From a virus (taxonomy: Duplodnaviria; Caudoviricetes), in IMG/VR virus record IMGVR_UViG_3300032302_000137, positions 1 through 42,238 of that record: 42,238 nucleotides of DNA; one strand, written 5' to 3'. This document shows positions 13,505 to 37,877 of this stretch, piece by piece (positions within the stretch are counted from its first letter, which is position 1; each line of letters starts with the position of its first letter). Position numbers and translations under genes: made by a program. The notes beneath the pieces were generated by a model. That model was not told the origin of the DNA, did not search any database, and saw only the letters and a program-made list of their open reading frames with translations.

Positions 13505-14380
13505 ATGACCGACTTCAATGTGGAACGGGACGGCTGGGGCCGACCGATGCTATATCCCCCGCGGGGCGGCAAAGCGGTGGCCTATACCAGGGTGTCCACC
13601 ATGGCTAAGTGGACTTCGGATCAGTCCGGTCTAATCAACTGGAAGGCATCCATGGCGATGATCGGCATGGCCCGGTCCAAGCCCATCCAGGCACGGATCG
13701 CCGCCATTGTCGCTCGTACCGAAAACGATCCGTACCGGGAGAACAAGACCGCCCTCAAGGAACTGGTGGAACATGCCACCCAAATCGCTCAGGCCCAGGG
13801 CCGCGCAGACATTGGGACCGCGGTCCACGAGTTCACTGAACTTCTCGACGCTGGAAAGCTTGACTGGCAGTTCGTTCCGGAACAGTTGAAAGCCCCGCTC
13901 GCCGCCTACCGCGAGAAGATGCAGGGGTTTGAGACGGTGGACACTGAGGTTTTCGTAGCCCTCGACGTTGAGGATGACGGCAAGCCGCTGCGGGGAGCCG
14001 GAAGCTTGGACCGCTTAATCCGCCACCCCGAACTTGGCGTGTGTGTGGCAGATATCAAGACCGGTGCAGATGAGCCGACCTATTCGCTGGGTGTCACCAC
14101 GCAGGTTGCGATTTATGCGCGTGGTAGCCGATACCGGGATGCCCGGTTTTCCGGTTCCCCGGCGTTCACGGACGGCGAAGCCAACGCTGATGGCACCGCC
14201 TACCGCAAAGAGCTTCACCCGGAACTGAACAAGTCCGTGGGAATTATGATCCACCTTCCCATTGACCGGGCCGAATGCACTTTGTATGCACTTGACCTTG
14301 ACCGCGGCTGGGACTCCTTGCTGCTGGGTAATCGGATCCAAAAGTCTCGTCGCCCACCGAAACTGAAAAGGATTGACTGA
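13505..14380 (+). CDS. PD-(D/E)XK exonuclease (RecE/Cas4-like)
   Basis: RDGWGRP, YTRVST, GTAVHE, AGSLDRL, ADIKTG, QVAIYA. Adjacent to ERF. Confidence 0.85.
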   Translation: MTDFNVERDGWGRPMLYPPRGGKAVAYTRVSTMAKWTSDQSGLINWKASMAMIGMARSKPIQARIAAIVARTENDPYRENKTALKELVEHATQIAQAQGRADIGTAVHEFTELLDAGKLDWQFVPEQLKAPLAAYREKMQGFETVDTEVFVALDVEDDGKPLRGAGSLDRLIRHPELGVCVADIKTGADEPTYSLGVTTQVAIYARGSRYRDARFSGSPAFTDGEANADGTAYRKELHPELNKSVGIMIHLPIDRAECTLYALDLDRGWDSLLLGNRIQKSRRPPKLKRID

Positions 14381-15071
14381 CGTGACCGACGACGTGATCG
14401 AGGCGTCCGAAGCCGAAGCCGCCTACGATTCCATCGACCTGAGCAAAGCCCTCTCCGAAGCGGAGAAGGCTGCATTTGAGGCCCGGTTATCAGAGCTTCA
14501 GGTAGCCCGGTCAGAGATAGAGCTTCTTGAGGCCCAGATCAACCTGGACTACCAGCTGTCCGGTCTGTTTACATTCCACCGCAGGGTGGAGCAGAAGTCG
14601 ATGAACCGACTGTACCGGTCGATGCGGCTGTGGAACAAGCACAACCCCACCGGGAAGTGGGAAATCTATCTCAACTCTGTCGGCGGTGAAGCGTGGGCCG
14701 GTATTGGCATCATTGATGAGTTGATTGCTCAGTCGATCCGCGGTGGCGGCAACCACGAAATCACCATCAAGGTTCGTGGTGTGGCTGCGTCGGCGGCGGC
14801 GATGATCTTGCAGGCTGCCGACCACCGGGTGATCGGTCGTAACTCTCAGCTGATGATCCACAAGGGTTCTTCCGGAATTCAGGGGACCGCCGACGATATC
14901 GGTGATGAACACGCGTGGTGGGAAGCGAGCGTGAGCCAGATGGTTTCCCTGTTCCTGTCCCGCACGGACAAGATCAGTAAGCGCGAGTTCATGCGGAAGA
15001 TCACTCGCCGCGACTGGTGGCTCAGTGCGGAGGAAGCGGTGGAGATTGGATTCGCTGATGAAATCGGATGA
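14373..15071 (+). CDS. ClpP-like serine protease
   Basis: IYLNSVGG, AASAA (Ser), MIHKG (His), RDWWLSAEEAVEIGFADEI (Asp). Confidence 0.9.
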   Translation: MTDVTDDVIEASEAEAAYDSIDLSKALSEAEKAAFEARLSELQVARSEIELLEAQINLDYQLSGLFTFHRRVEQKSMNRLYRSMRLWNKHNPTGKWEIYLNSVGGEAWAGIGIIDELIAQSIRGGGNHEITIKVRGVAASAAAMILQAADHRVIGRNSQLMIHKGSSGIQGTADDIGDEHAWWEASVSQMVSLFLSRTDKISKREFMRKITRRDWWLSAEEAVEIGFADEIG

Positions 15072-30359: not shown

Positions 30360-30974
30360 CTATATCCTTTCGATCTGATGGAACCCAAGTTCCACCGGAG
30401 TATCCCGACCGAAGATTGAAACCAGAACATGAAGCTTCCTGCGTTCAACATCGACCTCACTAACAGAGGCGTGATACCCGGTGAACGGACCATCCATAAC
30501 GGTAACCGCATCCCCGATGGAGAAGTCGCAAACAATCACATTTGCTGCGGTGGGATCCGCACCAACCTGACCCTTGACCTCTTTTACCGGAGGGGGGAGC
30601 AGGAACTTGATAACGTCGCCCAGGGCGAGGGGTGTCGGAACCGTAGTGGCCCCGACGAACCCGCTCACCCCAGGCGTATTTTTGACCACGGTCCACGCCT
30701 CGTCAGTCAACTCCATGCGGATCAACATGTAACCCGGCATGATGGTCTTTTTTGACTGTTTGCGCTGACCGTTCTTGAACTCGACAACGTGATAGGTGGG
30801 AACTTCCACCTGAAATATCACGTCCTCTAGCGCAAAGTTTGCGACTCGCTGTAACAGATTGGTCCGGGCCATGTTTTCGGCACCGACCTTGGCGCGAGCC
30901 ACATACCAATCCCCAGGAAGGGACCGGAGTTCTGCTGCGAGGATTTCCGCGGGATCAGTTGTTTCGGTACTCAT
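30360..30974 (-). CDS. nusG: NusG-like transcription elongation/antitermination factor
   Basis: NGN domain ([34 protein letters not shown]) and KOW domain ([35 protein letters not shown]). Confidence 0.95.
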
Positions 30975-36442: not shown

Positions 36443-36883
36443 CTACAGCCCTATGCTGTCGAAAAAGTCTGCTGCATCACCACGAACAGCTATCTTGTAA
36501 TCAGGATGCATTCGTTCAAGATCGTTCTGAAGTGGGATGAAATATCCACCATTGACGCATTTCAGTAGCATGTGTTCGCCATAAGGATCGCCACAGTGCA
36601 TACATCTGACACGGAAATCTATGTCGTAATCATTGTCATACTGGCGAACCAGCACCATGTCGGTTTTCAGAAACCAGCGATAGTTTTCTGTCATCGACCT
36701 GGGTAACCAATAAACTCGACCGCCGACCCGCGGGTCAGAATCTCTGGGGTCCGGTAATTTGATTTTGGTGAAAATTAGGGGACCTAAATCCTCACCCATC
36801 ACACACATGTTTCCGCGTGTTTTATCGGAACCCCAGATGAACTCGTCACCTGTCTTAAGCTCAGAAACCAGCTTGATACGCAT
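36443..36883 (-). CDS. hypothetical protein
   Basis: Very strong SD AGGAGGAGGT. CMHC...H...C. Confidence 0.65.
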   Translation of the reverse strand: MRIKLVSELKTGDEFIWGSDKTRGNMCVMGEDLGPLIFTKIKLPDPRDSDPRVGGRVYWLPRSMTENYRWFLKTDMVLVRQYDNDYDIDFRVRCMHCGDPYGEHMLLKCVNGGYFIPLQNDLERMHPDYKIAVRGDAADFFDSIGL

Positions 36884-36920
36884 ACCTCCTCCTTTCCTCG
36901 TATATTTTTTTCCCCCTTCG

Positions 36921-36999
36921 TGGAGCCGTGGGGAATCGAACCCCAGTCCAAACCATTCCGACTTGCGGGTTTAAGGTTTGTCGATACCATTCCGGCCCC
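36921..36999 (-). ncRNA. minimal tmRNA-like RNA (tRNA-like domain only)
   Basis: GGGGCCG-GAATGGTATCGAC-AAACC...GGTTTG-GAC-TGGGG-TTCGATT-CCCCA-CGGCTCC-A. G3.U70 acceptor stem, stemless D loop, no tag ORF. Confidence 0.8.
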
Positions 37000-37013
37000 T
37001 CGATACAGATAAG

Positions 37014-37057
37014 CGGCCCACGCTAGAATCGAACTAGCGACCACACCATGTGGGCCG
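37014..37057 (-). ncRNA. miniature tRNA-like RNA (acceptor stem + T arm)
   Basis: GGCCCAC-ATGGTGTGGTC-GCTAG-TTCGATT-CTAGC-GTGGGCC-G. Confidence 0.7.
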
Positions 37058-37198
37058 TCCGCACGCGCACGCGTGCGATATAGCCGTTCTCCCTTACCCT
37101 GCGGAAGAGTTGGCTATCCCGATAGTGCTAGACCCACGCCTACAGCTAGGGCAACTAACAGTAAAAACGAAGCCAACTCCACTTAAAGGTAGTCCTTT

Positions 37199-37453: not shown

Positions 37454-37550
37454 TTCCTCTCTTTCTCTTGTTTTAGTGCTGGCGCACTAGGACCGCCACG
37501 AGGGGAAACAGGAGGAGGAAAACCCCCATGGCGGTCCTGCTGCGCCAGAC

Positions 37551-37730: not shown

Positions 37731-37877
37731 TCTTACTCCTCTTTTTCTCACAGGGAAAGGGTGAAAAGGGTAGGCCGCAAGAATGTGCAGCGGATTTATC
37801 GGTAGGCTTACAGTCGCCTGGTCCCGCCTACCCTTTTCCTCTCCCCTTTTTCTATCTCCCCACGGTTTGGGAAGTCT

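What the first reader, a model, noticed from the sequence alone, without database searches (positions are those of the whole stretch)
36921..36999. 79-nt mini-tmRNA: a tRNA-like domain with no mRNA-like domain
Seen: the minus strand reads GGGGCCG GAATGGTATCGA CAAACC [20 nt] GGTTTG GAC TGGGG TTCGATT CCCCA CGGCTCC A. It has a 7-bp acceptor stem with G3.U70 and discriminator A, a stemless D loop ending GGxxTCGA, a 6-bp helix, a GAC linker and a perfect T arm. CCA is not encoded. Established: this is the architecture of the tmRNA tRNA-like domain (G3.U70 alanine identity, SmpB-binding elbow). Normal tmRNA carries roughly 270 more nt here, with pseudoknots and the tag ORF. The order is not permuted. 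Inference: an alanylatable SmpB-binding RNA that could titrate SmpB, rescue ribosomes without tagging proteins for degradation, or decoy tRNA/tmRNA-targeting defence enzymes.
Basis: partly seen in the sequence, partly recalled or inferred. Interest (0 to 1): 0.92.

Follow-up and report, generated by a model that had tools for sequence, protein, structure and literature searches.

The report
Phage tag-less mini-tmRNA with minihelix neighbour
This uncultured phage carries a conserved 79-base gene for only the tRNA-like head of the bacterial ribosome-rescue RNA (tmRNA), a form already reported from one mycobacteriophage, and it likely competes with the host's rescue RNA so that fewer proteins get tagged for destruction.

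Summary
In detail: 36921-36999 (minus) is a tmRNA tRNA-like domain with both ends and no tag region (Rfam tmRNA 61.7 bits; no ARAGORN call). The RNA is unchanged in related contigs from three studies while its flanks are swapped, so it is not an assembly deletion. It is not new in kind: mycobacteriophage DS6A's 'TLD only' RNA is in print, is 80 nt and shares the A-rich bulge and inner hairpin. This scan has also noted the form at least 40 times in other genomes. The family is large (about 410 IMG/VR stretches estimated) and its helices covary. In a search blind to the acceptor stem, 75 of 75 intact members keep G3·U70 and A73, which argues for alanine charging rather than a bare sponge. Best reading (0.5): a charged competitor of host tmRNA for SmpB and stalled ribosomes that lowers tagging. 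Expression and activity are untested.

The parts
36921..36999 (-). Mini-tmRNA gene (tRNA-like domain only), 79 nt from G1 to discriminator A; CCA not encoded (CGA follows)
36981..36992 (-). Stemless D loop; keeps U17, C18, G19 equivalents of the SmpB-contact set; position 16 is A
36949..36980 (-). Helix 2 stub (6 bp) capped by an A-rich bulge and a 3-bp hairpin in place of the pseudoknots and tag ORF
   Evidence: same layout in DS6A
36929..36948 (-). GAC connector (A334 equivalent) and T arm
37014..37056 (-). Second tRNA-like element: 7-bp acceptor-like stem, 11-nt linker with ATGGT, T arm, discriminator G; no anticodon arm; 14 nt upstream of the mini-tmRNA
   Evidence: 0 hits in 100 simulated 42-kb sequences; kept in relatives; class recurs in phages
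37114..37182 (-). 22-codon hydrophobic ORF upstream, with a similar ORF in relative L006; replaced in runs X5/X6, so not part of the conserved unit
36443..36883 (-). 146-aa ORF of unknown function directly downstream; replaced in runs X2/X3

Best explanation
The phage encodes a 79-base tmRNA head with no message, which likely is cut out of a longer transcript, charged with alanine, and likely competes with the host's full-length tmRNA for the SmpB protein and for stalled ribosomes, so that fewer unfinished proteins would receive the degradation tag. Shown: the gene, its fold by covariation, its invariant alanine identity set and its SmpB-contact bases. From established knowledge: RNase P and CCA-adding processing of tmRNA, AlaRS reading G3·U70, SmpB binding the D-loop/connector elbow, and TLD-SmpB entering the A site with EF-Tu. 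Inferred: the RNA is expressed in infection, uses host SmpB (none found in the 70-kb relative), accepts the nascent chain, adds one or a few alanines and, lacking a resume codon and stop codon, cannot write the SsrA tag; the net effect is less tagging and less tmRNA-linked decay of phage products.
For: Both tmRNA ends present, no tag region. Acceptor-blind scan: 75 of 75 representatives with an intact acceptor have G1:C72, G2:C71, G3·U70 and A73 while other acceptor pairs vary (6 of 81 dropped as likely 3' ends of full-length tmRNAs). Covariation in acceptor, helix 2, inner hairpin and T stem: 97.9% of cells paired, 0 of 500 shuffles reach it; helix-2 pairs 2-8 each 0 of 2000 shuffles in 64 representatives. 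SmpB pocket bases named in PMC8363625 (A15, U17, A334; C18, G19) are kept except position 15, which is U as in three actinobacterial host tmRNAs. A TLD-only RNA strongly inhibits tmRNA in E. coli (as cited in PMC4131195 and PMC11915505). TLD plus SmpB supports template-free polyalanine synthesis in vitro (as cited in PMC3929946). No smpB in the 84%-complete relative. 88 identical bases across the gene against a relative whose neighbouring blocks are 69-90% identical apart from one 29-base exact stretch.
Against: No expression, processing, charging or binding data exist for this RNA. [quoted passage not shown] The two papers differ on whether DS6A's own RNA or a similar molecule was tested, and the primary paper (Mao 2009) could not be read. 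Blocking rescue could also stall ribosomes that the phage needs. Nine of 80 family loci sit in arrays of 5 or more tRNAs, a context that usually supports translation. Position 16 of the D loop is A rather than the majority U (A in 13 of 64).
Confidence: 0.5

Rival explanations
1. Tag-free rescue: alanyl-RNA plus host SmpB clears stalled ribosomes by adding one or several alanines without a template, as mitochondrial tmRNAs are thought to do, keeping translation running when host tmRNA or mRNAs are cut during infection. A poly-Ala tail could itself be a degron.
For: Invariant alanine identity; template-free polyalanine synthesis by TLD-SmpB in vitro (PMC3929946); CDS-less tmRNAs persist with SmpB in mitochondria and some plastids (PMC11915505); poly-Ala tails are ClpXP degrons in B. 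subtilis (PMC8138137); 9 of 80 loci in tRNA arrays.
Against: No release step is known for a peptidyl-TLD without a stop codon (inference); the only reported in vivo effect is inhibition of tmRNA.
Confidence: 0.25
2. Decoy: the RNA and the neighbouring minihelix soak up host nucleases or sensors that attack tRNA/tmRNA during anti-phage defence.
For: Two anticodon-less tRNA mimics in tandem kept as one block in relatives; t(m)RNA fragments are linked to anti-CRISPR action on RNase R in another phage (PMC11662646 passages).
Against: A decoy for anticodon or message nucleases would be expected to keep the anticodon or message that this RNA lacks; it would not need invariant AlaRS and SmpB determinants. 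No paper found linking these terms.
Confidence: 0.12
3. Processing mark only: a tRNA-like fold that lets RNase P and 3' nucleases split the polycistronic transcript.
For: It lies between small same-strand genes, about 15 nt ahead of a purine-rich ribosome-binding site; no sigma-70-like promoter on its strand in the scan; flanking genes are exchanged freely.
Against: The acceptor-plus-T-arm minihelix class has mixed discriminators (A 12, C 9, T 5, G 3 of 29), whereas the mini-tmRNA keeps alanine identity, the SmpB elbow and a covarying helix 2 that cutting alone would not need.
Confidence: 0.08
4. Not a working gene: an attP-type copy of a host ssrA end, a decayed pseudogene, or an assembly deletion.
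For: The window has a tyrosine integrase; tmRNA 3' fragments occur beside integrases (Gordonia phage Ruthy); large internal deletions in metagenome-assembled tmRNAs are a known artefact (PMC11915505).
Against: Integrase is 9 kb away; 5' end and helix 2 are intact; the 28-nt 3' end is not within 2 mismatches in 401 genomes of the order searched; unchanged in contigs from three studies; sharp size class, 75 of 78 at 75-81 nt and only 5 hits with a 41-70-nt centre against 119+ with 10-40; same form in cultured phages DS6A and Alone3.
Confidence: 0.03

Closest known systems
'TLD only' (CDS-less) tmRNA of Mycobacterium phage DS6A (tmID 11587; JN698994 28478-28557)
   Same: 80 vs 79 nt; G3·U70, A73; no encoded CCA; helix-2 stub with A-rich bulge and the same small hairpin; 55 of 81 aligned positions identical; both score with a model built from neither (75.1 and 62.1 bits).
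   Different: Different phage lineage and gene context (right-arm small genes here; after gene 33 in DS6A); GAC connector here, CAC in DS6A; hairpin loop CAAGU here; preceded here by a conserved minihelix (none detected in the 40.6 kb of DS6A fetched).
Standard one-piece bacterial and phage tmRNA (Rfam RF00023)
   Same: Both termini, stemless D loop, connector, T arm and alanine identity.
   Different: About 290 nt missing: no pseudoknots, resume codon, tag ORF or stop codon; host examples are 368-392 nt.
CDS-less organellar tmRNAs (jakobid/oomycete mitochondria; ~65-nt Mallomonadaceae plastid genes)
   Same: No tag reading frame (PMC11915505 passage).
   Different: Those are the organelle's own rescue RNA with a targeted SmpB; this one is a phage copy that would act beside an intact host tmRNA. 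No mt-tmRNA model was listed for the window.
Engineered TLD fragments (Bessho 2007; Shimizu and Ueda 2006; Neubauer 2012, seen only through reviews)
   Same: Same architecture; shown to bind SmpB, be alanylated, enter the ribosome and make poly-Ala.
   Different: Synthetic and capped by a plain loop; the natural family has a conserved bulge and hairpin of unknown role.

Membership tests
TLD-only tmRNA (DS6A type) | Both tmRNA termini in standard order | tested here: met
   RF00023 positions 1-374 matched with central deletion
TLD-only tmRNA (DS6A type) | No tag reading frame or pseudoknots; about 80 nt | tested here: met
   32-nt centre incl. helix 2; 79 nt vs 80 nt in DS6A
TLD-only tmRNA (DS6A type) | Alanine identity G3·U70 and A73 | tested here: met
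   75 of 75 in acceptor-blind set
TLD-only tmRNA (DS6A type) | Stemless D loop and connector with SmpB-contact bases | tested here: met
   U17, C18, G19, A334 equivalents present; numbering mapped by me from the Rfam consensus to PMC8363625
TLD-only tmRNA (DS6A type) | Shares a structural model with DS6A | tested here: met
   Model R1 from 28 other sequences: window 75.1, DS6A 62.1 bits; full-length tmRNA 3' ends at most 35.4, tRNAs at most 26.9
TLD-only tmRNA (DS6A type) | Processed, CCA-added, alanylated, SmpB-bound; inhibits tagging | not testable with these tools
   needs bench work; no RNA run listed
Standard tmRNA (trans-translation competent) | mRNA-like domain with resume codon, tag ORF and pseudoknots | tested here: not met
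Permuted two-piece tmRNA | 3' piece encoded before 5' piece | tested here: not met
   RF04321 20.4 bits, E 3.1, below 47
Canonical tRNA | D stem and anticodon arm; RF00005 above 29 bits or an ARAGORN call | tested here: not met
   ARAGORN 0; identical copy 26.1 bits
attP-type ssrA fragment | One tmRNA end only, near-identical to a host ssrA, next to the integrase | tested here: not met
   both ends present; 0 of 401 genomes within 2 mismatches (the true host is unknown and may lie outside those searched); integrase 9 kb away
Bacterial Y RNA (YrlA) with Ro60 | Ro/TROVE protein nearby and a Y RNA model match | tested here: not met
   the 510-aa neighbour is an AAA ATPase; no Y RNA family listed

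The most novel reading that the evidence does not exclude
Hundreds of phages encode an alanine-charged mini-tmRNA that turns host SmpB into a template-free alanine-tailing rescue system on 70S ribosomes, replacing SsrA tagging during infection; in this lineage it is co-processed with an anticodon-less minihelix from a second, widespread class of phage tRNA mimics that matched no Rfam family here.
Probability: 0.2. Interest if true: 0.85.

Novelty: new member of a known kind. Interest (0 to 1): 0.45.

Why it matters
The form is known from a single phage and has been noted only in passing in the two papers found. The evidence here shows a large, structurally conserved phage family under strict selection for alanine identity, which makes an open question testable: what does a ribosome do with a tmRNA that has no message, the situation also faced in mitochondria? 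A cultured phage with an unannotated copy (Streptomyces phage Alone3 on S. lividans) offers a laboratory system. If the RNA inhibits tagging it is a natural phage inhibitor of trans-translation; if it tails with alanine it is a new rescue route. As a single locus, this copy adds little beyond its pairing with the minihelix.

Tried and rejected
Degenerate ordinary tRNA: rejected. Permuted tmRNA: rejected. Y RNA with Ro60: the large neighbour is an AAA ATPase. attP copy: 0 of 401 genomes. Assembly deletion: rejected; run X1 may be the window's own source and is not counted as independent. Overlapping protein: the 81-codon minus-strand ORF 36799-37044 loses its start frame in relative L006, where that frame opens only 6 nt before the RNA, and runs X5/X6 carry a 1-nt insertion in the spacer. 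Pairing of the central loop with a second RNA (lead from note e1-10067179): only two perfect 9-nt complements on the RNA's strand in the window, both far away, and none in L136; imperfect pairing was not tested. Origin by deletion between two GCAYG repeats flanking the message: the host-type tmRNAs printed do not show such paired repeats at both ends, so this stays a guess. Thermodynamic folding gave no support (z -1.47 for the RNA, -1.71 for the minihelix region). Promoter scan: 3 found vs 2.2 expected, none on the minus strand. No RNA holder listed among sequencing runs. Close relatives are scarce: 1 locus by the ATPase, 1 by the minihelix pattern; the metagenome scan for the minihelix returned many ordinary tRNAs (53 of 120 loci had an ARAGORN call) and no further copy beside a mini-tmRNA. 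Literature searches for a family-level description found only PMC4131195 and PMC11915505; subscription journals and the supplements and database files of those two papers were not seen and may list more short forms.

Full report
Observation. Rfam's tmRNA model matches model positions 1-374 with a central deletion at 61.7 bits, above the gathering score of 47; the other two matches listed for the window (mascRNA 26.7, permuted tmRNA 20.4) are below their cut-offs. ARAGORN finds no tRNA or tmRNA in the window. The stand-alone fold is unremarkable (z -1.47), so the structure has to be judged by comparison.

Setting. The window is a linear virus record estimated 57% complete. PHROG and Pfam hits include minor tail proteins, two endolysins, Erf, an exonuclease, a Clp protease, primase/helicase, two WhiB-like proteins, RusA, a tyrosine integrase and NusG; the best cultured matches to the helicase and the AAA ATPase are Mycobacterium and Gordonia phages at 34-38% identity. 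It is therefore an uncultured actinophage, host unknown (inference). The RNA lies in a run of small minus-strand genes, 9 kb from the integrase.

It is a real, selected gene. A 70-kb relative (L006/L136; ATPase 93% identical) has 88 identical bases across the gene while the other aligned blocks are 69-90% identical, apart from one 29-base exact stretch, and the flanks differ. Contigs from sequencing runs of three studies cover the RNA without listed differences; in X2/X3 the downstream gene is replaced, in X5/X6 the upstream region is replaced from 37060, and in X7 a contig matches 36914-37000 with no other letter and unlike sequence on both sides (X1 may be the window's own source).

The family. 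The same pattern with a 41-70-nt centre gave 5. In 64 representatives under 90% identity, acceptor pairs 5 and 6, T-stem pairs 1 and 2 and helix-2 pairs 2-8 were paired far above shuffles (0 of 2000 each). On a 28-sequence alignment all four helices held (97.9% paired, 0 of 500 shuffles; slid controls 36-53%), including the 3-bp inner hairpin with two pairs changed on both sides; relatedness inflates such shuffle tests, but the slid controls keep it. A second pattern with no acceptor base gave 120 loci and an estimate of about 410 stretches (it overlaps the first scan and includes some full-length tmRNA ends): 103 distinct, 81 representatives, of which 75 close an acceptor stem, and all 75 have G1:C72, G2:C71, G3·U70 and A73; the 6 dropped lack helix 2 and look like 3' ends of full-length tmRNAs. 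In one genome per bacterial and archaeal species the first pattern hit only 14 stretches, 13 with an intact acceptor, some among phage-type genes. Contexts vary: 9 of 80 loci with flanks lie in arrays of 5 or more tRNAs, and 25 of 80 share one neighbourhood that I read as head genes from the sequences, not by HMM.

What is known. PMC4131195 (passages read) lists 'Mycobacterium phage DS6A (TLD only)' and says a similar molecule, chargeable or not, strongly inhibits tmRNA, perhaps by titrating SmpB (Mao 2009). PMC11915505 (first fifth and passages read) says the DS6A form was shown to inhibit endogenous tmRNA in E. coli and reports other CDS-less forms in mitochondria and plastids. Mao 2009 itself was not held. 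I located the DS6A RNA (80 nt, 43.2 bits); it has the same bulge and hairpin. A model built from 28 sequences that exclude both scores the window 75.1, DS6A 62.1 and an unannotated copy in the tRNA cluster of Streptomyces phage Alone3 56.2 bits, against at most 35.4 for full-length tmRNA ends and 26.9 for tRNAs. The window's RNA is thus a member of the DS6A kind. Searches for a family-level description found none in the library held. This scan has at least 40 earlier notes on the form in other genomes; they are not independent support.

Mechanism. Reviews (passages read) state that G3·U70 directs alanylation, that tmRNA is processed by RNase P, that SmpB binds the D-loop/T-stem elbow and boosts charging (PMC3989591; PMC3968760; PMC8012679), and that a TLD fragment with SmpB makes polyalanine in vitro without mRNA (PMC3929946). 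The cryo-EM paper names A15, U17, A334, C18 and G19 as SmpB contacts (PMC8363625); the window keeps all but A15, which is U as in three actinobacterial host tmRNAs; the numbering is my mapping. No smpB was found in the 84%-complete relative, so the partner would be the host's. Because inhibition by titration reportedly needs no charging, the invariance of G3·U70 and A73 suggests that the selected function includes alanylation, and so probably ribosome entry; charging could also merely stabilise the RNA. I therefore commit to a charged competitor that lowers SsrA tagging (0.5), with tag-free alanine-tailing rescue as the main rival (0.25; poly-Ala is a ClpXP degron in B. subtilis, PMC8138137 passage), then nuclease decoy (0.12), processing mark (0.08) and non-functional origins (0.03). 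None of these steps has been tested for this RNA.

The neighbour. Fourteen bases upstream, 37014-37056 (minus) forms a 7-bp stem, an 11-nt linker and a T arm with no anticodon arm. It is the only such element in the window, and 100 simulated sequences gave none. Relative L006 keeps it with two compensated stem pairs, and X5/X6 keep exactly the block 36916-37059, with one U-A to U·G change in the T stem. A loose pattern shows the class is common in phages: 29 of 76 representatives close a 7-bp stem against 2.4 expected from shuffled partners, with mixed discriminators and no encoded CCA; 16 loci gave no Rfam family for it above a gathering score. The pairing with a mini-tmRNA was seen only in this lineage. 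It most likely serves as an RNase P cutting mark or a second tRNA-elbow mimic (inference; the cutting-mark reading follows earlier notes).

Verdict. Real, conserved, and a new member of a known but little-studied kind. Interest 0.45: the kind is published and repeatedly seen in this scan, but the family's breadth, its strict alanine identity and a cultured test system make the function directly testable.

Noticed in passing
window 37014-37056 (-); L006; runs X5/X6: 43-nt anticodon-less minihelix kept in tandem with the mini-tmRNA; the class (stem, ATGGT linker, T arm) recurs widely in phage contigs, sometimes twice per locus (L416, L445), with no Rfam family found.
   Followed up: partly
L122, L125, L127 (genomes G001, G003, G004; records titled Candidatus Saccharibacteria): 62-nt TLD-only RNAs with encoded CCA and a bare hairpin centre, in genomes that also hold a 390-392-nt tmRNA; a TrmB-family gene lies nearby in L122 and a same-length ORF in the other two. 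Possibly a cellular, not phage, second copy.
   Followed up: partly
L128 (G005) and L124 (G002): Short tmRNA is the only tmRNA match over the cut-off in these incomplete genomes; could be an assembly deletion of the cell's own ssrA.
   Followed up: no
L001 3001-3077 (Streptomyces phage Alone3, OR725492 18155-18231); L022: Unannotated mini-tmRNA inside the tRNA cluster of a cultured phage; its D loop is one base shorter than the window's.
   Followed up: partly
L159-L163: Five longer message-less forms (99-118 nt) with extra helices in the centre.
   Followed up: no
window 37476-37550 and 37750-37850 (-): Two long intergenic hairpins conserved in relative L006, each ahead of a purine-rich ribosome-binding site; possibly regulatory leaders.
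   Followed up: no
window 30360-30974 (-) and 14373-15071 (+): Phage-encoded NusG/KOW protein and a ClpP-family protease outside the head-gene region; the latter is of interest beside an RNA that may alter degradation tagging.
   Followed up: no
family alignment, inner hairpin: The hairpin often carries GCAYG (55 of 133 distinct centres; GCANG 69 of 133), resembling the 3' strand of helix 2 in several full-length tmRNAs seen; here it reads GCAAG.
   Followed up: partly
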